Below are positions 1,345 through 64,000 of a DNA stretch of 64,000 nucleotides, in pieces. Source of the DNA: a virus. How positions within the stretch are numbered: the first letter of the stretch is position 1; each line of letters begins with the position of its first letter. The notes below the pieces were generated by a model. That model saw only the letters and a program-made list of their open reading frames with translations, was not told the origin of the DNA and did no database searches. Location of the stretch: the IMG/VR virus record IMGVR_UViG_3300037722_000745, positions 229,116 through 293,115 of that record. The stretch is one strand, 5' to 3'. Both the position numbers and the translations under genes were made by a program.

Positions 1345-1493
1345 TCAGCCACGCAGTCGAGGCAGAAACTGTCTTTGCCAGCCTCCTTCGAGTAGTCTGA
1401 CGCTGCGAGCCACCGATGTGCCGACGGCCACGAGTTTGGCTCACCTGCGCCGCATAGTGCCAACCCGTGCCAAAGAAGGTGGACAACCCTCAC
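1311..1493 (-). CDS. Small hypothetical protein (His/Cys Zn-binding-like)
   Basis: Overlapping start/stop packing with neighbours; CLDC motif. Confidence 0.5.
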   Translation of the reverse strand: MRVVHLLWHGLALCGAGEPNSWPSAHRWLAASDYSKEAGKDSFCLDCVAEWEKTEWTIKS

Positions 1494-1795
1494 AGCGACT
1501 GGACCTTCCAGTCGTCGAGATTACAGCCCTCGGGACCGTGTTCAATGATCTGCCTCACATGTCCGGGGCCAAACGGTACCTTGTGGTTGAAGGCAGCACC
1601 GCCCTCGAACTGGTCGTACTCATCTTGATCGGTCCATCGCCGCGACGTGCAGGTGAACTGCGTCGCCGCCCCGCCGCTGAGATCTTGGATCGTCAGCTTC
1701 AGTACCTTGGGGGTCCAGCCCTTGGTTCGCGGGGTGATCGCCCAATGGTACGTCGTACCCATGAACTCTAGTTTGCGTCCCTTGTGCAGTGCCAT
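1490..1795 (-). CDS. Hypothetical protein
   Basis: MALHKGRKLEF... begins right after the stop of the upstream gene. Confidence 0.6.
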   Translation of the reverse strand: MALHKGRKLEFMGTTYHWAITPRTKGWTPKVLKLTIQDLSGGAATQFTCTSRRWTDQDEYDQFEGGAAFNHKVPFGPGHVRQIIEHGPEGCNLDDWKVQSL

Positions 1796-1797
1796 CG

Positions 1798-2748
1798 CTA
1801 ACCCACATGCCGAAACACTACAAGACGACCTTCCCGCTCCGCCTGGCGAATGACCGGCGGCAGAGATTCTAAACTCAACCAAGCATCCCCGCGGGTGCCG
1901 CCCGCAAAATCCGTGTCGTCGTAGTGTGCCGTCAGACAGATGCCCGCGTCGATGATCTGTAGAGTCCGAGCGTCGCATGTGCACTCGTAACGCCGCCCAC
2001 CCATCCGGAACCGCACGACCATCTCGTTGCGTCGCGGGGCCTGCCGGTGATCGAGATACTCAGCCTCACCAACCGCGAGAGCCGCCCGAGCCGCGGTCCC
2101 GAAATCCTCTTGGGCCAACGCCCGCCGGCCAGCACCATCACCGAGCTGCTCCGCGATCTCCCGACGACGGGTTTCCCGCTGCCGTTCCTCTTCCTCACGC
2201 TGAAGGCGTTCCGCCAGCTCCCGCCGACGCCGCTCCGCCTCCAACCGCCGCCACCGCTCAAGCGTGAAGGCGACATCCAAAGCCGGCGACACCTCTCGGA
2301 TATCAGCTAGCGTATCCTTGCCGTCCAGAAAGGCCGTCTGCACCTCGAACTCGGGCCCCAGAGGCATTTCTTGCTGGATGTAGACCAACGGGCCGTCCTC
2401 GGACACGCGGCCCGCAGAGACCCGTACGAAGCGATCTAGGCCCGGTTCGATGAGATGGACCCGCTCCGTCTCGCTCTTAAAGGAGGCGAGCTTCCTTTGC
2501 GAAGCCGACACGAGCCGATCGCCGACCAGGTAGCCTACCTCTCGGTACTTGAGCTGCTCCGGCTCGGGATCACACACCTCCTGGACCCGAGCCGTCCGAC
2601 CGCCCACCGAGAACCGAACCCAGCCATGCTCCGCCGGCAGCCGACCCTCGATCACCCACCGACGTGGGCCCGACCGGAGGGACCTACCCCCAATCCAAGG
2701 CGCGACAAGCGTCTCGCCTTCAGTCGCAAGTAAGTCTCTCCAACCCAT
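1798..2748 (-). CDS. Conserved protein of the Ubl cluster, putative E2-like C-terminal domain; contains an in-frame CRISPR-like repeat
   Basis: Start MGWRDLL aligns with paralog MTWRTLL; coiled coil, then IIDAGICL (cf. E2 G-x-ICL catalytic Cys) followed by a helix; E2 assignment is inference. Confidence 0.55.
   Translation of the reverse strand: MGWRDLLATEGETLVAPWIGGRSLRSGPRRWVIEGRLPAEHGWVRFSVGGRTARVQEVCDPEPEQLKYREVGYLVGDRLVSASQRKLASFKSETERVHLIEPGLDRFVRVSAGRVSEDGPLVYIQQEMPLGPEFEVQTAFLDGKDTLADIREVSPALDVAFTLERWRRLEAERRRRELAERLQREEEERQRETRRREIAEQLGDGAGRRALAQEDFGTAARAALAVGEAEYLDHRQAPRRNEMVVRFRMGGRRYECTCDARTLQIIDAGICLTAHYDDTDFAGGTRGDAWLSLESLPPVIRQAEREGRLVVFRHVG
2468..2503 (-). repeat. Solitary CRISPR-like repeat, family A
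   Basis: TTCGCAAAGGAAGCTCGCCTCCTTTAAGAGCGAGAC; same architecture as the array repeat at 14640-14894. Confidence 0.85.
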
Positions 2749-2903
2749 GGCCCAGCCACCTATTACACCGATTAGGCTGCCAGCAAACAACCAAAACGAA
2801 GGGATTCGCCCCATCAAAGTGGAATTACTACCACTGTCACGGCGTCCAAATTTTGGTTTGGGATGTCACATGAGGGTTAATTAAACACCCTGATTTCAAC
2901 GAC

Positions 2904-3185
2904 GTGTTGGGTTTGGCCTACTTCCTGCAAGCCTGGCGGAGCCCTCCTGGGGCCAAAATGGAGATGAAAATGAAAGACACAGAACGCCTGCTGCCCTGGA
3001 ACCAACACGGCGACATTCACCACACGTTCACGAACAAAGGGTCTGGAATTGTCTACCCGCACGACGAAGGCTTCCACTGGGAAGTTTTTGGTGGTGGAGA
3101 CAGCTCCTGGCACGACCAGGCGGAATCTCTACACTCAGCTAAAGCCCACGTAGAAGGCACCTTTGTGGGTCGCGGCCTGATTTAG
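2904..3185 (+). CDS. Small hypothetical protein inserted in opposite orientation
   Basis: ORF between the two paralogs, followed by a hairpin at ~3195-3231. Confidence 0.5.
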   Translation: MLGLAYFLQAWRSPPGAKMEMKMKDTERLLPWNQHGDIHHTFTNKGSGIVYPHDEGFHWEVFGGGDSSWHDQAESLHSAKAHVEGTFVGRGLI

Positions 3186-3214
3186 ATCGACAAGCGGGGC
3201 GTCGTCTAATTTCA

Positions 3215-3598
3215 CTACCAGACGACGCCCCCACCTCGTTTTTCAAGCCGGCCCGCAGAGACCCGTACAAAGCGATCTAGGCCCGGTTCGATGAGATGGA
3301 CCCGCTCCGCAGCACGGAGAACCTCCCCGTCCGCTTGTCCAGCCTGAACCGAGGACGGTACGAGGCGATCTCCAACGAGATAGCCAACCTGCCTGTGCCA
3401 CAGGCTTTCTAACTCAGGTTCGGCCAGAGCCTTGACCTGAGCCTTACGTCCCTCCAACGCAAACTCAATCCAGCCATGCTCTACAGGAAGGCTCCCCTCG
3501 ATGACCCAGCGACGGGAGCCCGACCGGAGGGACCGGCCCCCAACCCAAGGTGCGACAATCGTCTCACCTTCTTTCTGAAGTAGGGTCCTCCAAGTCAT
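3215..3598 (-). pseudogene. Truncated paralog of the N-terminal half of 1798-2748
   Basis: APWVGGRSLRSG...VGYLVGDRLV...ERVHLIEPGLDRFVRVSAGR, then abrupt stop; ~60 nt (3250-3309) nearly identical to 2409-2468. Confidence 0.85.
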
Positions 3599-4527
3599 GA
3601 CTCTCCAACCCTAATCTTCCAGGACTCCAAACTCTCACCACGTCTTCTACGTCGGGCCAACTTCAGTCTTGCTTCGGGGGTACTAAGAGCCTTCGTTATA
3701 GCCTCGCTATGTTTGGCTTTAACTTCGGGGATACTGAGTGTCTGGGCTATAGCCCTACCGCGTTTCTCTTTCTCCCCAGGTTGAGCCCATTGGCCTTTCA
3801 TCCTACGACTCATAGCGGCCAGCCGTTCCAAAGTCATTGATGCTTGAACACCAATCTTATGGCGCTTCTTCACCTCAGGTAGGGCCAGTCTCTTAGCTGC
3901 CTCAATGCTTAGCTTCTTTCGCACCTCACTTGTATACCCGGCTTTTTGAAGCTTGATGCGTTGCCCCCTTTCCTCGGCCGAGTACCCAGCCCAAGATGCC
4001 TTAAGACCCGCACTACGTTTCTCCTTCTCACCGGGTCTGGAGTAAACCTCCAACATCTTAGCTCTACGACGAGCTTTAGAATCAGGTTGACTGCAGGCCA
4101 AGATCAACGCTTCACGGTGCCTAGCCTTTACGTCGGGCCGTGCCATAGCTAACTTTACCCCAGCACTGTTCTTAGCTCGAACCTCCGGCCTATTCTGAGC
4201 CTCTTTCCCAGACACCGACATTTTCCGTCGAGTCTCTGCCGAAGGCTTCCCGTTTGACCCACCTGTCTTCAGATTGTACCCAAGCGGAGACAGAGAGGTG
4301 GCCACCCATTTAATTTCCAGCGCATCCAATTCCTCTTTCGAGGATGCCTCACCAACGACCTCAAACACGAATTTGTCTCGGCCATACTTGGCGATAGCCG
4401 CCCGCAAAGCGTGGCAATGGCTGTCAGTCCTGAAATGATGTGACCACCTCTCCGAAGGGTTGATGGTTTGACCGTGGTAACATTTTCCGCTGACCAAACA
4501 ACGAATCCTGTAAACCAAACCGTACAC
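3595..4527 (-). CDS. GIY-YIG homing endonuclease (Seg-like) with NUMOD3-type repeats
   Basis: GLVY-x-YHGQT, R, E, GYN motifs; repeated SAETRRKMS/PEVKAK segments. Confidence 0.88.
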   Translation of the reverse strand: MYGLVYRIRCLVSGKCYHGQTINPSERWSHHFRTDSHCHALRAAIAKYGRDKFVFEVVGEASSKEELDALEIKWVATSLSPLGYNLKTGGSNGKPSAETRRKMSVSGKEAQNRPEVRAKNSAGVKLAMARPDVKARHREALILACSQPDSKARRRAKMLEVYSRPGEKEKRSAGLKASWAGYSAEERGQRIKLQKAGYTSEVRKKLSIEAAKRLALPEVKKRHKIGVQASMTLERLAAMSRRMKGQWAQPGEKEKRGRAIAQTLSIPEVKAKHSEAITKALSTPEARLKLARRRRRGESLESWKIRVGES

Positions 4528-4537
4528 AACCGCAGTT

Positions 4538-6475
4538 TTAGCAAAAGGCTGCTGGCTTCTGCAACAGATCCGTCTTGAGAATGGTTTCCACGAGGGTTAC
4601 TCGCGGAGCGGCCTTTACCACTGCCCTACCTACCGGCGTGGCAGCGATCATGGCTCGGATGGTAGGCGGGATCGCGTAGGGATCCGCGAAGATCCCCTCG
4701 TCGATCATGAAGCACGGGATGCCGAGTTGGGCTGCCGTGTCCGTGACCGCGTGGTACATGGGGGAGCTGCGGACCTTCAAGAAGCCAAATGCAATCGGGT
4801 TGAGGCCCGAAGCTTGGACCGCCTTATGGAACGGGCCAGCCTCCTCATCTCCGACGAAGATAAACAACACATCCTCGTCCGGCTGAGGCTTATGTTGATT
4901 GAGAGCCCGAACCCCCGCTCCGTAGTCAGTCCCTCCTCCTGCATGGATCCCGCGGAACGCCTGTTCGACGCCCGCTGCGGATTCATGCTTAAGGGCAATC
5001 TCTCGCCCCGTAGTGTTGAAGACCGAGATGTGCACCTGGTCCTTGGGGAAGCCCTGTAGGAACTTCGCCAAGTAGCGCTTGGCTTCGGTGATCGCGTTCT
5101 GCATGGATCCCGAGATGTCCACCATGAAGTAGATCCGCAAACCCTTCACGACTTCCTCGACCGCCGCCTTGAGGGCGTTGTCGGCCGCCTCGTTCAGCTT
5201 CTCTTGGGTCGCCTTCGACCGCACTCGGGTCGCGATGTTCGCTGCCCGCATGTCGTCGGCTTCCTTAGTGGCACACTCCCACCGCTCTCGAATCTCCTGG
5301 ACCTCAAGAAGTCCAAGCTCTTCGAGCGTTGGGGTTGCGATCAAAAGGTCCTTGTTGGAAAGAGACCCTGCCTCGATGGCTGCCGCCACAATCGCCCGCG
5401 TCAGCCCCATACCCTTCGGCAGGAGCCCCACGATGCGCTTGAAGTTAGGCTTGGTCGCAACGATAGTCTCGCAGACCTGCTCCTCCGAAAGGCCCTCCCA
5501 GGACTCCGCAGCCTTGACAGCCTGGCCGATGGCGACGGTACGGTGACCCTCGTCGGCCTGCTGCTGCCCCCACCGCAGCGTCTCGAAGAACTTTGGTGAG
5601 GTCGGCTTGTACCGGCAGGCGATGGCGAGTTCGATCACCTTCGTCCGGAAGCCCGCCTTGACGAGGCCCTCCAACATCTGAGGGTTCTCTTCACGGTACC
5701 GGAGCCACTTCTCCGCCGCCTTGGGCCAACGACCCATGAACGGCCGACGAGCGGACTTGCCAAAGCCCAGCTCCCGGTTGATCTCGGCCACCTGCGGCAG
5801 CCGTAGGATGTCGTGGATCCGCATTAGAAGCTTGGGATCGAATGTCTTGATCTCGTTCTTCTGTTGTGCCCCGTCACCTTGAGAGCGGGACCGGGTGAGC
5901 AGCAGCATGGCCTCACCGACATCCCGGTAATCCTCGTCGAAGAACAGGACCTTGCCGTTCTCAACAACCGGGTCACCCTTGCGGTATTGCACGAGCATGA
6001 ACGCCGCGAGAATGACCTTCAGGTCCCGGTGCTCCTGCCCGAATGCGTAGCTGGCCCACTTGGCGGCGAACTCGTTGTCGAGCTTCCAGACCTCGGCGAC
6101 CTGCTTGTACATCCAGATCACGACCTCCGGGTAGAGGCCGGGCGGCTGGTAGCGACCAACAGCGCGGTTGCCGTCCTTAACGATGACATCGCCCTGAAGC
6201 ACTGGGGCGAGCGTCGCGGGGTTCCGACCCGTGGTCATCTTCCCGAGCTTGACCTTGGTGCCCTTCCGACGGCCCACGCCCTTGCGAAGCTCGTAGACGA
6301 TCTTGTCGCCCTCTTCCTCTGCGTGGGTCACCGGCAGCCACTTCGTGCCCACCACGGAGCCAGGATCTGGAATCACTACGCCTGGTCGGTTGTGCATTGC
6401 GTGATCAGAATACGAGAGGACCGTCTGGAGGATTCTCTCAGCCGGCCCGAGTGCGTTCTGTTCGTGATTTGGCAC
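4538..6475 (-). CDS. vWA-domain protein with TROVE/Ro60-like helical N-terminal region
   Basis: MIDAS DISGSM...GGTDYG...VGDEE; DNEFAAKWASYA and AESWE segments resemble TROVE; GTG start after GAGAGG. Confidence 0.7.
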   Translation of the reverse strand: MPNHEQNALGPAERILQTVLSYSDHAMHNRPGVVIPDPGSVVGTKWLPVTHAEEEGDKIVYELRKGVGRRKGTKVKLGKMTTGRNPATLAPVLQGDVIVKDGNRAVGRYQPPGLYPEVVIWMYKQVAEVWKLDNEFAAKWASYAFGQEHRDLKVILAAFMLVQYRKGDPVVENGKVLFFDEDYRDVGEAMLLLTRSRSQGDGAQQKNEIKTFDPKLLMRIHDILRLPQVAEINRELGFGKSARRPFMGRWPKAAEKWLRYREENPQMLEGLVKAGFRTKVIELAIACRYKPTSPKFFETLRWGQQQADEGHRTVAIGQAVKAAESWEGLSEEQVCETIVATKPNFKRIVGLLPKGMGLTRAIVAAAIEAGSLSNKDLLIATPTLEELGLLEVQEIRERWECATKEADDMRAANIATRVRSKATQEKLNEAADNALKAAVEEVVKGLRIYFMVDISGSMQNAITEAKRYLAKFLQGFPKDQVHISVFNTTGREIALKHESAAGVEQAFRGIHAGGGTDYGAGVRALNQHKPQPDEDVLFIFVGDEEAGPFHKAVQASGLNPIAFGFLKVRSSPMYHAVTDTAAQLGIPCFMIDEGIFADPYAIPPTIRAMIAATPVGRAVVKAAPRVTLVETILKTDLLQKPAAFC

Positions 6476-11760: not shown

Positions 11761-11796
11761 GTCTCACTCTAGAGGGAGGTGAGCTTCCCTCGCAAC
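11761..11796 (-). repeat. Solitary CRISPR-like repeat, family A
   Basis: GTTGCGAGGGAAGCTCACCTCCCTCTAGAGTGAGAC, 4 nt upstream of tRNA-Arg(TCT). Confidence 0.88.
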
Positions 11797-14639: not shown

Positions 14640-14894
14640 GTCCCACTCTTGATGGAGGTGGGCTTCCGTTGTGACCGTGCGGATTTCGGAGATGACGCTG
14701 AAGCCGTCATCGGTCCCACTCTTGATGGAGGTGGGCTTCCGTTGTGACTTCGCTCCGATCGCAATCCCGCAGGATCGCGACCAGCCGTCCCACTCTTGAT
14801 GGAGGTGGGCTTCCGTTGCTGCCAGGCAGGACGGCTCGAAGTGGCTAAGATGATGTTGGTCCCACTCTTGATGGAGGTGGGCTTCCGTTGCTGC
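14640..14894 (-). CRISPR. Orphan CRISPR array: 4 x 36-nt repeats, 3 spacers (37, 38, 36 nt)
   Basis: Repeats at 14640, 14713, 14787, 14859; minus strand G(T/C)(C/A)(A/G)CAACGGAAGCCCACCTCCATCAAGAGTGGGAC; unique spacers; leader on the high-coordinate side. Confidence 0.96.
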
Positions 14895-17101: not shown

Positions 17102-17121
17102 TTGTTTGGTTGCGGGAGCCG

Positions 17122-17157
17122 GTCTCGCTCTTTCAGGTGGCGAGCTACCACGGTTTT
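17122..17157 (-). repeat. Solitary CRISPR-like repeat, family A
   Basis: AAAACCGTGGTAGCTCGCCACCTGAAAGAGCGAGAC followed by a duplicate of the tRNA-fMet 3' end. Confidence 0.8.
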
Positions 17158-17312: not shown

Positions 17313-17316
17313 GTTG

Positions 17317-17357
17317 TGGTGGGTCCTCTCGGGATCGAACCGAGTTCTCCGATTTTT
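17317..17357 (-). pseudogene. tRNA 3' half (probably Phe-type) directly after a repeat
   Basis: AAAAATCGGAGAACTCGGTTCGATCCCGAGAGGACCCACCA. Confidence 0.75.
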
Positions 17358-17393
17358 GTCTCACTCTTGTAGGGGGTGAGCTTCCCTTACTCC
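17358..17393 (-). repeat. Solitary CRISPR-like repeat, family A
   Basis: GGAGTAAGGGAAGCTCACCCCCTACAAGAGTGAGAC. Confidence 0.85.
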
Positions 17394-17825: not shown

Positions 17826-17861
17826 GTCTCGCTCTTGAAGGAGGCGAGCTTCCTTTGCGAG
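17826..17861 (-). repeat. Solitary CRISPR-like repeat, family A
   Basis: CTCGCAAAGGAAGCTCGCCTCCTTCAAGAGCGAGAC; a partial repeat end AAGAGCGAGA recurs ~28 nt downstream. Confidence 0.88.
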
Positions 17862-22858: not shown

Positions 22859-25800
22859 TCATTCCTCCGGGACCAGTTCTTCGAGACGAGATGAGATGTC
22901 CGCGAGGTCGTCATCAAATGCTTTGTCTCCCGACTTCGTGCGGAGTGCCTTCAGGCGAGCTTCGGCCAGGGCATGGAAGTCTGGATCCTTCTCGATTCCG
23001 ACGTACTGACAGCCCGCCTGAATAGCCGCTACACAGGTTGTCCCTGTTCCGCAGTACGGATCGAGCGTTGTCCCACCTCGGGGCGTAACGAGCTTGACCA
23101 ACCATTCCATGAGGGAGAGAGATTTCATCGTGGGGTGAGGGTTCTTCGCTCCCTTCATCCAACCTTCACGCTCTTGCTTGCTGACCTTCGCTGTGTAGAA
23201 GAATGGAGCCTCAGGCTCGAACTGACCGAAGTAGCGTGAAGCCCCTCCTCCCTCACCCACTACCGATGATGGTTTTGACCCATCAGCAGTTGTGACTGCC
23301 CCGTGGTAGCCCATACCCTTTTGACATTCACCGGAGAACCATCCCGGGGCTCTAAAACCGCTCTGCTTGTCCAACGCCTTGACCGGACACCCCTCGACAC
23401 ACTCGTAGACGGGGATCTCCTCCATCCCATCAGCATCACCTTGCGGCTCTGACGTGTAAGAGTGTCCGGCCCCATCACCGAACGGCTTCATCCCGTCATC
23501 GAAGCGGTTGATGACGGGGGCCTTGACCCGCTTCGAACCTACGACCTCACACTCGGTCGAATGAATCATCAGAGTGTTAGCTGGCCAACGCCCATGATTG
23601 TGGACCTCCGTCTCCACACCCCCGACCATCCCCTTCACCATCGTGTTGCGAGCTTTGCCCGGCGAACTGCTGTTGGTCCGCGTCGTGTGGCCGATCCGCG
23701 TCGCATCGATATTCAGCCCGCCCGTACCGTGCTTCAGAACGTTCTGAGCAACAGTAGCCTCCGAAAGAGGCTTACGGAACACTAATATCGGTTCCCACGA
23801 GGGTTTAAGAGCCGTGCCAAGGCCATCAAATTGTGAAGCGGCTTCGGAGTCCACCCCTGCCTTCAACACCGCTTTCTTCACATTTAAACTCTTGGGAAAA
23901 CCAGAGTTACCTGTGATGAACACCCTACCATTGCGTCGAGCTACGAACGCCCCAGTCTCCACGCGAACACACCACACCTCCCCGTCATAGTCTTTCAGAT
24001 GGGTCGCATGGAGATGTCTGGACTGTAATTCCGTAGTCCGATTGTCGTGCAACGAAACACAACGCTTCTTCGCGTTGTCCCGACCTTGCCACCCGATCAT
24101 GTGGGCCAGGACCTGAAACCACTCACGGTCAACACCGTCTTTTTGGTAGAATTGCTTCTGGCCTACAGATCCATCCCCGTCCATAGCTGCGGATAGAAAC
24201 GCCCTCTTCTCATCAAGGGTCATCCGCCACAACAGGTCGTAAGTTGGATGTTTGCCGGGCAAGATCTCTCGAACACTCAGAGCCGGTTCGCCCGAGAAGA
24301 ACCACGTGTATTCTGTGTACTCCCGGCCCTTGTATGTGCGTACCCTCTCGTACTTTTTGAAGTCGGGAGCGAACTTCTGAGTCAACCGATCAATCTCAAC
24401 CACATGGTCGGGATTGACACTGCTCTGGTAAATGCGAACACCCGTCCAGGAGTTATCGAATCCGCCCTCAGTCCAGATCCACGCCAAGAAAGCAGCGTAG
24501 TCTTCCCCGCCAATCCCCGCCCCATCGTGGTACCCAGCCAATGGTAGCTTGATTGCTTGCCACCGATTGATCTCAGCAGCCTCCATCGGAACCCACTCTT
24601 CCTCGAACCACTTGCGACGGGTTTTTGCTACCTGTCTACGGATAGCGTGTCGCTTGAATACGCGATGGTTAGGGGTCAGTAGCTGATCGGTGTTGTCGTT
24701 ACGAAAGCACACCATCGACCCCTGGTAAGGGGCTCGGAACACTTCTAAGACAGGACGTAATCCAATCCCCTCTGTGGCCGGGTCCCACGTGGCTACCGAC
24801 AAACCTTCTTTGAGTTGGTCCGGTCCCACCCACCCGTGCTCAGTGAGAATCTCACTATCCTCACTGAGACACCCGTAAACCCACTGGAACACCTGGACGC
24901 TGAACTGCGCTGCTACGGTATCTCGACACTCAAAACCCGCGAATCGCAGTCCCATCGAGATTAAGTCGAACGTGCGGGTGGAGCCAAAGCTCAAGAGGTG
25001 CCCGCCGGGCTTGAGGGCGCGGTAGCATTCCCTCCATACGGCAACGGGCGGGATTTCCCAGGTATGACCCATAAAATCTTTATGTGTCTTGTGTGGTGAA
25101 TGGAAACGATCCAACAGAACCCTTGGCACCGCAACGTTCAACGTAATTGCCCCGCCTGCGGGCAACCCTACCTTGCAAGTCAGAAAGCGCTTGAGAAGCG
25201 TCGTCAGACTACCTGCTCCAGACGCTGTTCCTATACACTCCGAGGAAGTCAGAAGAAGTCGAGCGTCGGCTTGGTCTGCGGGGTCTGCAAAAACGAGTTC
25301 ACCAGAAACCCGAGCCACATCAAGGGTAAGCACGGCGCAAACTTCTGTAGCCCTATCTGTCACTATAAAGGGCGCTCCCTCGGGCTCTCCAAACGGATTG
25401 TGTACAAGCCGTACAACCATACGAAACAAGGCCGGGCCAACCGAAGTAAAGCAGCCGCACACCTCTACGCATCCGGTAAAGGTTTGGCTTTCCCGAAGAC
25501 AGAACTGGCGGTCCTTGAGCGCCTCAAAACCCAAGGAATCAACGTTGTCCACCAGAAGGTTGTCGAACTTCCCGACAGGGCCTATGCGGTTGACTTCTTT
25601 TTCCCCACTAGAGCCGACGGGGGTTTGATCATCGAATTGGATAACCCCGGACGACATGATCGGGGGTTGATGCACGCTGACTTTGAACGAGACAAGATCT
25701 TGAGCGAATTGGGGTTCGAGGTCGTCCGCTTGTGGGACAACGGACGACCGGAGAATGCTATTCGCGCAGTGCTGGACACCCTTCTTCAATGGCCCGAGAG

Positions 25801-25966
25801 ACGGAGCGCCTCCAAGGTACCGGATGATGTCCTCTGCGGTAGGTTCTCTAGAAGATAGACCATACGGGGGGTCAGTGACGATCGAGTCAACGCTGGAGTC
25901 AGGGAGCGTCTTCAGGACTTCGAGGCAGTCGCCCAGGTGGACCTGGTTAGGTTTCAGAGCTGGCAT
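22859..25966 (-). CDS. N4/N6 DNA methyltransferase (beta class) with an intein and a large in-frame insertion
   Basis: GDCLEVL...IVTDPPY at the N terminus; HPTMK...DPYCGTGTT...GIE at the C terminus. Confidence 0.9.
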   Translation of the reverse strand: MPALKPNQVHLGDCLEVLKTLPDSSVDSIVTDPPYGLSSREPTAEDIIRYLGGAPSLGPLKKGVQHCANSILRSSVVPQADDLEPQFAQDLVSFKVSVHQPPIMSSGVIQFDDQTPVGSSGEKEVNRIGPVGKFDNLLVDNVDSLGFEALKDRQFCLRESQTFTGCVEVCGCFTSVGPALFRMVVRLVHNPFGEPEGAPFIVTDRATEVCAVLTLDVARVSGELVFADPADQADARLLLTSSECIGTASGAGSLTTLLKRFLTCKVGLPAGGAITLNVAVPRVLLDRFHSPHKTHKDFMGHTWEIPPVAVWRECYRALKPGGHLLSFGSTRTFDLISMGLRFAGFECRDTVAAQFSVQVFQWVYGCLSEDSEILTEHGWVGPDQLKEGLSVATWDPATEGIGLRPVLEVFRAPYQGSMVCFRNDNTDQLLTPNHRVFKRHAIRRQVAKTRRKWFEEEWVPMEAAEINRWQAIKLPLAGYHDGAGIGGEDYAAFLAWIWTEGGFDNSWTGVRIYQSSVNPDHVVEIDRLTQKFAPDFKKYERVRTYKGREYTEYTWFFSGEPALSVREILPGKHPTYDLLWRMTLDEKRAFLSAAMDGDGSVGQKQFYQKDGVDREWFQVLAHMIGWQGRDNAKKRCVSLHDNRTTELQSRHLHATHLKDYDGEVWCVRVETGAFVARRNGRVFITGNSGFPKSLNVKKAVLKAGVDSEAASQFDGLGTALKPSWEPILVFRKPLSEATVAQNVLKHGTGGLNIDATRIGHTTRTNSSSPGKARNTMVKGMVGGVETEVHNHGRWPANTLMIHSTECEVVGSKRVKAPVINRFDDGMKPFGDGAGHSYTSEPQGDADGMEEIPVYECVEGCPVKALDKQSGFRAPGWFSGECQKGMGYHGAVTTADGSKPSSVVGEGGGASRYFGQFEPEAPFFYTAKVSKQEREGWMKGAKNPHPTMKSLSLMEWLVKLVTPRGGTTLDPYCGTGTTCVAAIQAGCQYVGIEKDPDFHALAEARLKALRTKSGDKAFDDDLADISSRLEELVPEE
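23906..24871 (-). mobile_element. Intein (322 aa) with LAGLIDADG endonuclease
   Basis: YG|CLSEDSEILTEHGW...TPNHRV...FLAWIWTEG...FLSAAMDGDG...VWCVRV...FITGN|S. Confidence 0.93.
25100..25858 (+). CDS. Zn-finger + DUF559/Vsr-like endonuclease nested antisense within the MTase
   Basis: CPAC, CSRRC, CGVC, CSPIC; TE...Q...VDFF...IIELDNPGRH...DFERDKIL..LGFEVVRL. Confidence 0.88.
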   Translation: METIQQNPWHRNVQRNCPACGQPYLASQKALEKRRQTTCSRRCSYTLRGSQKKSSVGLVCGVCKNEFTRNPSHIKGKHGANFCSPICHYKGRSLGLSKRIVYKPYNHTKQGRANRSKAAAHLYASGKGLAFPKTELAVLERLKTQGINVVHQKVVELPDRAYAVDFFFPTRADGGLIIELDNPGRHDRGLMHADFERDKILSELGFEVVRLWDNGRPENAIRAVLDTLLQWPERRSASKVPDDVLCGRFSRR

Positions 25967-28830: not shown

Positions 28831-29200
28831 TCAATGGGACCGCCGACTCACTAAACCTTCGGCCACCAACACATCACAGACGAACGAAACCTGGGCAATT
28901 CCAGGATCATCACTGAACCACTCAACGTGAAGCCGTTGGTCTGAGATCACCTCATTGTCCCTTAGGCGTTTGCAACGATCACGGCAGAAAGACCTCTGGA
29001 GCCCGGTCACCTTGGAGAGCTTGTCGGGGTTGGTTGTCCCACTGTGCGGAATCGCCAACAACAAGAGAGCAGAGCTTCTCTGTGTGCCTTCCAGCTCCAT
29101 CTCGTCAAACAAGAGAGCAGAGCTTCTCTGTGTGCCTTCCAGCTCCATCTCGTCAAACGCCTGGTTGATGAATTTCAAAGCCTCGTCGGTCAGCGGGTGG
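28831..29200 (-). CDS. Winged-HTH-like protein with 16-aa tandem duplication (start uncertain)
   Basis: NPDKLSKVTGLQRSFCRDRCKRL HTH-like; FDEMELEGTQRSSALL x2. Confidence 0.55.
29060..29158. repeat. Perfect 48-bp tandem duplication
   Basis: Units start at 29060 and 29108. Confidence 0.95.
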
Positions 29201-56853: not shown

Positions 56854-56855
56854 AA

Positions 56856-57050
56856 TTTCAATTACGAGGGAGGCTTTCACCTCCCTCAGGCTCGATGAGC
56901 CTACGAGCTTTTCGAGAGCCTCAGTGGTGTGTTACCCTCGGGAGTCTCTCGCAACCCTGAGAGTTCCTTGAAAATTCAATAGGTTAGATGGATCCGGATC
57001 CCGCCGCTCTCGCAGCCTGAGGGAGGCTTTCACCTCCCTCGTAATTGAAA
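56856..57050. repeat. Two 36-bp class 1-like repeats in inverted orientation flanking a CRISPR-leader-like sequence
   Basis: 57015-57050 GCCTGAGGGAGGCTTTCACCTCCCTCGTAATTGAAA; 56856-56891 is its inverse except for the 6-nt loop. Confidence 0.85.
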
Positions 57051-57212
57051 ACCATTAGCGTCCCGGTGATCAACAGCCAACGTTGCCCCACATGAGCAGT
57101 TGCGAAGCTCGATCTGTCCGCCCAGACCATCGAGCTGAAAACCAATGAATTTCAGCTCTTCCTTGGTTTTGTAGGAAACCCCACAACAGGTGCAAGTAAC
57201 GATCGTTCGCAT
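57030..57212 (-). CDS. Small Zn-ribbon protein
   Basis: CTCC...ELRNCSCGATL; TTGTAATAC upstream. Confidence 0.65.
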   Translation of the reverse strand: MRTIVTCTCCGVSYKTKEELKFIGFQLDGLGGQIELRNCSCGATLAVDHRDANGFQLRGR

Positions 57213-57299: not shown

Positions 57300-57335
57300 C
57301 CCGCAAGGGAAGCTCACCTCCCTAAAGAGTGAGAC
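57300..57335 (+). repeat. Solitary CRISPR-like repeat, family A
   Basis: CCCGCAAGGGAAGCTCACCTCCCTAAAGAGTGAGAC. Confidence 0.88.
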
Positions 57336-63644: not shown

Positions 63645-63790
63645 CCGTTCCTGATCGTGAGATCAGGCGGCACAGGGCTTACCTAGTTCCTGCTTCCACG
63701 AGGACAGCCAGGCCGCTGTGGCACCTGGACTTACATTCTCTCCACAGGCTGTCACCGAGGTACTCTCGGCCAACATCTTCAGATTCTTGG
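63645..63790 (-). mobile_element. Right end / omegaRNA region of the TnpB element
   Basis: GCCTGTGGAG...GAAGCAGGAA overlapping the tnpB 3' end, hairpin CCTGAT/ATCAGG, terminal GAACGG as in IS607-like ends. Confidence 0.6.
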
Positions 63791-64000
63791 CAGCGTTGTG
63801 ATCACGGTCATGCTCTACACCGCAATCCTGACACTGCCAATTACGCTCGGACAGCTCAAGATGCGGCTTGATGCAGCCGCACTCGGAACACGTCTTAGAG
63901 CTAGGGAACCAGCGGTCTGCTACCACGACTTGAGAGCCGTTCAAGGCAGCCTTGTATTCAAGCTGCCTTCTAAACTCGTGCATCCCGACATCCGAGATAG
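63663..64000 (-). CDS. tnpB: TnpB RNA-guided endonuclease, C-terminal part (IS607/IS605-like)
   Basis: EFRRQLEYKA...FPSSKTCSECG...WQCQDCG.EHDRDHNAAKN. Confidence 0.93.
   Translation of the reverse strand, partial: ISDVGMHEFRRQLEYKAALNGSQVVVADRWFPSSKTCSECGCIKPHLELSERNWQCQDCGVEHDRDHNAAKNLKMLAESTSVTACGENVSPGATAAWLSSWKQELGKPCAA

What the first reader, a model, noticed from the sequence alone, without database searches (positions are those of the whole stretch)
2409..3360. A CRISPR repeat translated in frame inside the E2-like gene
Seen: the full gene reads DRLV-SASQRKLASFKSET-ERVHLIEPG, while the truncated paralog 840 bp away reads DRLV-PSSVQAGQADGEVLRAA-ERVHLIEPG. The replaced residues are largely encoded by the repeat at 2468-2503. 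The ~60 nt after the repeat match the paralog with one mismatch, and in the paralog they are preceded by TGC (TBN-compatible). Inference: this is direct internal evidence that the repeat replaced native sequence 5' of a protospacer while keeping the frame. If processed from the mRNA, the unit would be a perfect guide against the paralog, which is itself truncated just past this segment.
Basis: partly seen in the sequence, partly recalled or inferred. Interest (0 to 1): 0.85.

Follow-up and report, generated by a model that had tools for sequence, protein, structure and literature searches.

The report
Cas12m-type CRISPR repeat inside phage gene
A giant phage carries a CRISPR repeat, likely of the DNA-binding Cas12m kind, written in frame into a loop of one of its conserved genes at a spot where many related phages have a TTC target signal, so it likely shields this gene copy and may supply a guide against sibling phages rather than against the broken copy next door.

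Summary
A 35-nt repeat (2468-2502, minus strand) replaces a variable loop in frame in a 316-aa gene of a 323-kb CasPhi phage. None of 119 protein homologues or 55 viral alleles has it, and an unbroken contig from another run spans it.

The interpretation needs correcting. The repeat is not the CasPhi repeat. It belongs to a second family (17 copies) that, in a related contig, forms the array of a Cas12m-like gene and keeps the Cas12m pseudoknot. TGC fits none of the Cas12m PAMs I read, so the paralog is probably not a target.

Relatives often carry a TTN (usually TTC) at exactly the replaced position (12 of 55; 9 of the 25 closest; top 4-7% of positions). A second in-frame case, in a kinase gene of another phage, and a tRNA case also sit at TTN sites; one site does not.

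Best reading: a repeat-spacer unit recombined into its protospacer, erased the PAM and left an mRNA-borne guide against siblings (0.45). No Cas12m is in the 68%-complete genome, and no expression data exist. 'E2-like' is unconfirmed. The scan already noted in-frame Cas12m repeats in other phages; I found none in print.

The parts
2468..2502 (-). Family-B (Cas12m-type) CRISPR repeat, 35 of 36 nt, read in frame as SQRKLASFKSE(T)
   Evidence: array context in L012
2408..2467 (-). 60-nt native block after the repeat; its first 17-20 nt would be the guide
   Evidence: guide length from PMC10442227 and 10.64898/2026.03.26.714355
1798..2748 (-). Host gene, 316 aa, conserved member of the vWA-gene-JAB-Ubl-ThiF operon; predicted beta-rich N-part, coiled coil, Cys-bearing C-part
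3215..3598 (-). Truncated second allele (127 aa), start overlapping the GIY-YIG stop; N-half 71% identical in DNA
3249..3311 (-). Copy of the 60-nt block (1 mismatch) with TGC at 3311-3309 before it
3196..3231 (.). 12-bp inverted repeat at the truncation end of the paralog; not called by the terminator scan
   Evidence: sequence
2904..3185 (+). Small ORF on the opposite strand between the two alleles; no family or relative found
3595..4527 (-). Free-standing GIY-YIG endonuclease between vWA and the paralog; a GIY-YIG lies in the same gap in 1 of 60 related loci (L073)
14640..14894 (-). Four-repeat family-B mini-array without cas gene
17826..17860 (-). Closest sister copy of the in-gene repeat (34 of 35 nt)
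17109..17157 (-). Family-B copy followed by a 13-nt duplicate of the upstream tRNA-Met 3' end, natively preceded by TTC

Best explanation
A repeat that is likely of the Cas12m type sits in frame in a variable loop of a conserved phage gene; it was likely written there by recombination between a repeat-spacer unit and its protospacer, which would have erased a TTC PAM, so this allele would be shielded and its mRNA would yield a guide against sibling phages that keep the PAM. Shown: the in-frame replacement (about 41 native nt out, 32 in, taking the paralog's 17-aa loop as the yardstick), its absence from relatives, the intact pseudoknot. Inferred: the Cas12m assignment (from a relative's locus and published repeats), the route (spacer homology on the 3' side, a 3-nt TCG overlap on the 5' side), the lost PAM, and purifying selection keeping only the in-frame product. 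Untested: transcription, processing, silencing. The perfect match in the paralog is read as a by-product of a local 60-nt copy made when a GIY-YIG-linked allele met this one; with TGC it is likely not a target.
For: Family: array upstream of a 794-aa Cas12m-like gene in L012 (PDB 23vw Cas12m, E 4e-24); same layout as the eight Cas12m repeats in PMC11013384 Table S5; 98% of cells paired and 3 of 8 pairs compensatory over 14 copies, 0 of 500 shuffles reach the covariation score. PAM position: TTN in 12 of 55 distinct alleles, reached by 6.5% of 918 positions; 9 of 25 alleles at 55% identity or more, reached by 3.8% of 924; TBN not enriched (26.5%, 18.4%). Second in-frame case: the kinase in L013 has an 11-aa insert absent from its 37 closest homologues; gene and repeat share 10 nt at the left join, the 11 nt after the repeat re-copy the upstream codons imperfectly, and that register follows TTT. 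Third: the copy at 17122 is followed by a 13-nt duplicate preceded by TTC. PmCas12m cuts pre-crRNA both in the repeat and at guide position 17-18; one repeat suffices for Cas12r. Fold predicted to survive: pLDDT 83.5 against 84.5 for a native-loop homologue (both lean on the same alignment). Cas12m-like genes occur in 2 of 50 phages of this group.
Against: No Cas12m in G000 (record 68% complete). The complete relative G008 has 5 solo family-B-like copies but no array and no match to the Cas12m query, so the effector may be absent or borrowed. The PAM enrichment is modest and chosen after the fact. The only exact copy of the target has TGC; the best sibling alleles differ in 3-4 of 17 nt and none of the ten best has TTN. 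The sequence after the copy at 11761 is preceded by CAC in L005; two G029 spacer matches (2-3 mismatches) are preceded by ACT and CTG. A 36-nt spacer alone cannot explain a 60-nt shared block; a second event is needed. The co-orientation of all copies with transcription is not predicted by this route.
Confidence: 0.45

Rival explanations
1. Neutral scar: repeats are scattered by sloppy microhomology recombination in repeat-rich jumbo phages; this one survived only because it fell in frame in a tolerant loop, and it does nothing.
For: Three repeat families are all dispersed in this genome. The loop varies from 13 to 20 aa in homologues. Two of three frames of this copy are open. No cognate effector found. 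The L013 join has a 10-nt microhomology.
Against: 3' ends are complete and 5' ends worn, with compensatory pairing kept. TTN at two independent empty-site registers and enriched at this one. Strand follows transcription in 6 of 6 copies checked outside the tRNA cluster and 10 of 10 inside.
Confidence: 0.25
2. RNA handle, not guide: Cas12m binds or cuts the repeat in the phage's own transcripts to trim tRNA precursors, tune mRNA levels or soak up a host or rival effector (Racr-like).
For: Co-orientation with transcription. Many copies abut tRNAs or leaders. Repeats lie in or beside the cas12m-like genes of L012 and G029. 16 of 17 units have no perfect self target.
Against: Does not explain the PAM-position signal. 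In G008 two copies lie opposite to the flanking ORFs. Cutting inside a conserved gene should cost expression.
Confidence: 0.17
3. One reading: the unit is a working guide against the paralog in the same genome, used by CasPhi (TBN) or by an effector that accepts TGC.
For: Perfect 39-nt match. TGC fits the CasPhi-2 TBN PAM (PMC9942878). The in-gene variant and the CasPhi repeat share the terminal 5-bp stem and AC end.
Against: The CasPhi array has a different repeat with a 4-nt loop. A cutting nuclease with a perfect self target should destroy or mutate it, yet the target is unchanged in X1-X4. TGC fits no Cas12m PAM read.
Confidence: 0.1
4. Assembly chimera at a repeat.
For: The repeat and the 60-nt block are both repeated sequences; Logan contigs of X1, X2 and X4 break at the shared 40-mer.
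Against: The X6 contig 2063-2827 is unbroken and identical; 6 of 8 runs laid have a piece across the repeat; no joint is listed in any run.
Confidence: 0.01

Closest known systems
Type V-M CRISPR-Cas12m (PMC10442227 and PMC11013384, passages plus supplement Table S5; bioRxiv 10.64898/2026.03.26.714355, passages; phage-borne MvCas12m in bioRxiv 10.64898/2026.09.14.751636, passages)
   Same: Repeat length, GTnnCAA start in full copies, stem plus pseudoknot, AC end; single crRNA cut by the effector; DNA binding without cutting; T/C-rich PAM.
   Different: A single repeat inside a protein-coding frame, no cas12m nearby or in the assembled genome, and the 'spacer' is the gene's own continuation.
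Viral solitary repeat units and RNA anti-CRISPRs (PMC10651486, passages; PMC11656645, passages)
   Same: Lone repeat in a virus genome, away from cas genes.
   Different: Those are intergenic small RNAs with their own promoter; that survey masked ORFs and treated intragenic hits as probable false positives. This one is intragenic, translated, and sits at a PAM position.
Viral CRISPR mini-arrays aimed at related viruses (PMC7099407 and PMC11656645, passages)
   Same: Guide against close relatives; recombination proposed as the route of spacer gain.
   Different: No second repeat and no separate locus: guide and former target are the same piece of DNA.
Spacer-protospacer recombination between phages and CRISPR loci (Varble et al. 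2019; seen only as a citation in PMC7099407, content recalled)
   Same: A spacer serves as homology arm and joins a repeat to its protospacer.
   Different: There, arrays or loci are moved; here only one repeat remains, in frame, in a working gene.
CRISPR-CasPhi/Cas12j of huge phages (PMC7162821, PMC9942878, passages)
   Same: This phage encodes one (718 aa, PDB 7lys E 3e-159) and scatters its repeat handle too.
   Different: Its array repeat is not the repeat in this gene.

Membership tests
Type V-M (Cas12m) repeat | 36-37 nt, short stem plus 5-6-bp pseudoknot, ending in AC | tested here: met
   the in-gene copy lacks only the first G
Type V-M (Cas12m) repeat | Repeat family forms the array of a cas12m gene | tested here: met
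   in the related contig L012; the protein misses no cut-off tested because no Cas12m model rang in NCBIfam, so the name rests on PDB sequence hits
Type V-M (Cas12m) system in this phage | cas12m gene in the same genome | tested here: inconclusive
   no match in G000, 68% complete
Type V-M (Cas12m) system in this phage | Target flanked by TTN/YTN/CCN-type PAM (paralog as target) | tested here: not met
   TGC against PAMs; the PAM of this ortholog is unknown
Type V-M (Cas12m) system in this phage | Processing into a crRNA and DNA binding | not testable with these tools
   needs RNA or biochemistry
CasPhi (Cas12j) crRNA | Repeat matches the cas-adjacent array | tested here: not met
CasPhi (Cas12j) crRNA | TBN PAM at the target | tested here: met
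   TGC fits the CasPhi-2 PAM; TBN is common (about a quarter of positions do as well)
SRU / Racr | Solitary, no other repeat within 100 bp | tested here: met
SRU / Racr | Intergenic, own promoter | tested here: not met
   inside an ORF; no sigma-70-type site in 1400-4700
SRU / Racr | Repeat matches a host array | tested here: inconclusive
   0 and 1 hits in genome contigs, the one a lone match inside a helicase-like ORF; host unknown
E2 / UBC-like enzyme (host gene) | UBC fold or family match with catalytic Cys | tested here: inconclusive
   no Pfam, NCBIfam or PDB match; best fold hit is a proteasomal-ATPase inter-domain, Z 5.5, rmsd 3.5, 103 aligned; an invariant G-x-C-L at 269-272 resembles the E2 motif as recalled; the C-part was not folded alone

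The most novel reading that the evidence does not exclude
Repeat homing into protospacers: jumbo phages turn a conserved gene into its own guide by having the Cas12m handle written over the PAM, possibly templated by the crRNA in the R-loop. The carrier becomes immune, silences sibling alleles in co-infection, and the repeat spreads like a homing element. That would be guide acquisition in place, without an array.
Probability: 0.18. Interest if true: 0.9.

Novelty: new variant of a known kind. Interest (0 to 1): 0.64.

Why it matters
Phage class 2 systems mostly lack Cas1 and Cas2, and how they gain guides is open. A repeat pasted over a PAM inside a working gene would give immunity and a new guide in one step, and shows that mRNAs can be guide sources. 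Surveys of solitary repeats masked ORFs, so this class would have been missed. This locus and the L013 kinase give two defined substrates for a direct test, and the TGC paralog is a built-in negative control.

Tried and rejected
CasPhi as cognate effector: different array repeat. Cas12m in G000: none by three searches; a TnpB-like ORF at the window's end has no family-B repeat beside it. Family-B searches: 0 in viral contigs with two long patterns; a 16-nt pattern gave 42 single hits, none a real copy apart from one 7-mismatch stretch; 0 of 5 related records; 6 metagenome loci, of which 4 overlap on two near-identical contigs. Which N-half is native to the C-half: trees unresolved, correlations equal (0.28, 0.31); the GIY-bearing relative L073 is equally close to both. 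Pop-out of the 841-bp unit: contig depth is about 0.8 of the flanks in X1 and X2 but about equal in X3, X4 and X5, no joint seen, and such depth is no copy number. No RNA holder listed. PAM from spacers: 90 repeat-following stretches against the loci held gave no perfect non-self match. Origin of the insert between the alleles: no match. Plain folding scores are not significant; a pseudoknot is outside that method. No E2 in fold searches or the Atlas. A relaxed tRNA scan was noise and was not used. Rows dropped: two 5-mismatch CasPhi-type hits of 19; duplicate alleles among the 60 loci (55 kept); 10 of 60 loci not given.

Full report
Setting. The window is positions 229116-293115 of a 323,174-bp linear virus record, 68% complete by CheckV. 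It holds 35 tRNA genes and a tmRNA. Outside the window lies a 718-aa CasPhi/Cas12j gene (PDB 7lys, E 3e-159) with a seven-repeat array. The gene in question lies in a vWA-gene-JAB-Ubl-ThiF operon that the related loci share.

Observation. Codons 83-94 of the 316-aa gene are encoded by a repeat that matches the copy at 17826 in 34 of 35 nt. The next 60 nt match the truncated allele 841 nt upstream with one mismatch, behind TGC. Of 892 homologues the best 120 were listed; none of the 119 foreign ones has the repeat peptide, and the loop is usually 17 aa against 14 here. At DNA level none of 60 viral loci has a family-B repeat in this gene; one has a copy 4 kb away. A 765-nt contig of run X6 spans both edges without a difference. 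Five more of the eight runs laid have pieces across the repeat, four of them possibly the source, and the runs may be one campaign.

Which repeat. The genome has at least three repeat families, each with arrays and scattered copies. The in-gene repeat is not the CasPhi one. Its family (B) has 17 copies: a four-repeat mini-array and 13 others. In a metagenome contig (L012) a family-B array lies directly upstream of a small gene and a 794-aa protein whose best solved relatives are Cas12m (23vw, E 4e-24); that protein's own C-terminus reads through repeats. The layout equals that of the eight Cas12m repeats in Table S5 of PMC11013384 (supplement part read) and the pseudoknot described in PMC10442227 (passages). 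Over 14 copies 98% of cells pair, with three compensatory pairs (related sequences inflate such scores). No Cas12m was found in G000. Two of 50 related records have one; a complete relative has five solo copies and none.

The PAM. TBN is the CasPhi-2 PAM (PMC9942878, passage). Cas12m PAMs in the papers read are TTN, YTN, YTTS, TTV and CCN-type, and these proteins bind without cutting. TGC fits none. At the aligned position 12 of 55 distinct alleles have TTN, a level reached by 6.5% of 918 positions; among the 25 closest it is 9, reached by 3.8% of 924. YTN gives 22 of 55 (6.6%) and 15 of 25 (5.0%). TBN is not enriched and TGC never occurs. This is modest support, and the test was chosen after seeing the data.

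The paralog. Its N-half differs from the full gene's as two long-separated working alleles would (25 synonymous and 26 replaced codons of 80; 16 of 34 fourfold sites equal), while the shared block is nearly identical (13 of 14). The block was therefore copied recently, in a direction I could not determine. The paralog is coupled to a GIY-YIG endonuclease that relatives mostly lack; an allele exchange driven by it is my inference from recalled knowledge of free-standing homing endonucleases. So TGC need not be what the repeat replaced. Only 1 of 17 family-B and 0 of 17 CasPhi-type units has a perfect 20-nt self match.

Independent cases. In L013, another phage contig, a Ser/Thr kinase gene has an 11-aa insert that its 37 closest homologues (up to 85% identical) lack. 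Gene and repeat share 10 nt at the left join; the 11 nt after the repeat look like a sibling version of the preceding codons, in a register that follows TTT (my reading of the sequence). In the window the copy at 17122 is followed by a 13-nt duplicate of the upstream tRNA-Met end, natively behind TTC. Three CasPhi-type copies are followed by tRNA T-loop sequence that normally follows TTC (two share one cassette). Against this, the sequence after the copy at 11761 follows CAC in a relative, and two imperfect G029 spacer matches follow ACT and CTG.

Mechanism. Most likely a repeat-spacer unit aimed at this conserved gene recombined into the protospacer, through spacer homology on one side and a short overlap on the other, removing the PAM and most of the loop; only an in-frame product kept the gene. 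The fold is predicted to survive. PmCas12m trims both ends of a pre-crRNA (bioRxiv 10.64898/2026.03.26.714355, passages) and one repeat suffices for Cas12r (bioRxiv 10.64898/2026.04.20.719267, passages), so the mRNA could yield a guide against siblings that keep TTC. The sibling-guide reading came to me from earlier scan notes; I tested only its PAM prediction. Every functional step is untested, and no close sibling target was found (best 3-4 mismatches of 17). Rivals: neutral scar 0.25, RNA handle or sponge 0.17, self-guide against the paralog 0.10, artefact 0.01. The strand bias (16 of 16 copies checked follow transcription) favours an RNA-level role and is not explained by the best reading.

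The protein. No family or structure match. The repeat lies in the beta-rich N-part, which weakly resembles tandem OB domains (Z 5.5, rmsd 3.5, 103 aligned; below the level the tool calls meaningful). The invariant Cys 271 is far away. 'E2-like' stays open.

What is known. Viral solitary repeats and mini-arrays are known (PMC10651486, PMC11656645, PMC7099407; passages); the repeat survey masked ORFs. A phage-borne Cas12m was claimed as a first in September 2026 (bioRxiv 10.64898/2026.09.14.751636, passages). PMC7162821 was read in passages. Eight literature searches showed no report of translated intragenic repeats at PAM sites; only listings and abstract starts were seen for most hits, subscription journals are missing, and preprint supplements were not available. 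The scan has noted in-frame Cas12m repeats in other phages (unchecked notes).

Verdict. Real; a new variant of viral solitary repeats; interest 0.64.

Noticed in passing
L013:5001-5036 (-), gene 4180-5406: Family-B repeat as a clean 33-nt in-frame insert in a phage Ser/Thr kinase gene, with 10-nt microhomology and a TTT at the matching register.
   Followed up: yes
L012:1810-5265 (-): Cas12m-like gene (794 aa) with partner gene, upstream array, and repeats translated in its own C-terminus; only one homologue cluster found.
   Followed up: partly
window 17313-17393 (-): Family-B copy fused to the 3' half of a tRNA whose 5' half is missing; the same kind of fusion appears in G008 (L173, L177).
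   Followed up: partly
window 6521, 12937, 14324, 16511 (-): Solo CasPhi-type handles; three are followed by tRNA T-loop sequence starting right after the usual TTC.
   Followed up: partly
L174, L175 (G008): Solo family-B-like repeats behind a shared AT-rich upstream motif, opposite to flanking ORFs, in a complete phage without array or Cas12m match: possible stand-alone guide cassettes.
   Followed up: no
L118-L142 (G029), L143-L172 (G034): Two related jumbo phages with Cas12m-like genes and long arrays; G029 spacers match ThiF and vWA genes of this operon with 2-3 mismatches.
   Followed up: partly
window 56855-57051: Two inverted copies of the third (type I-C-like) repeat family, 121 nt apart, near a family-B copy at 57300-57335.
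   Followed up: no
window 63780-63977 (-): TnpB-like zinc-ribbon domain in a 314-aa open frame at the window's end.
   Followed up: no
window 22859-25966 (-) and 25100-25858 (+): Large DNA-methylase-like ORF with insertions and a 252-aa nuclease-like ORF nested on the opposite strand (labels from reading the sequence, no call).
   Followed up: no
window 29060-29155: Exact 48-nt tandem duplication inside an ORF.
   Followed up: no
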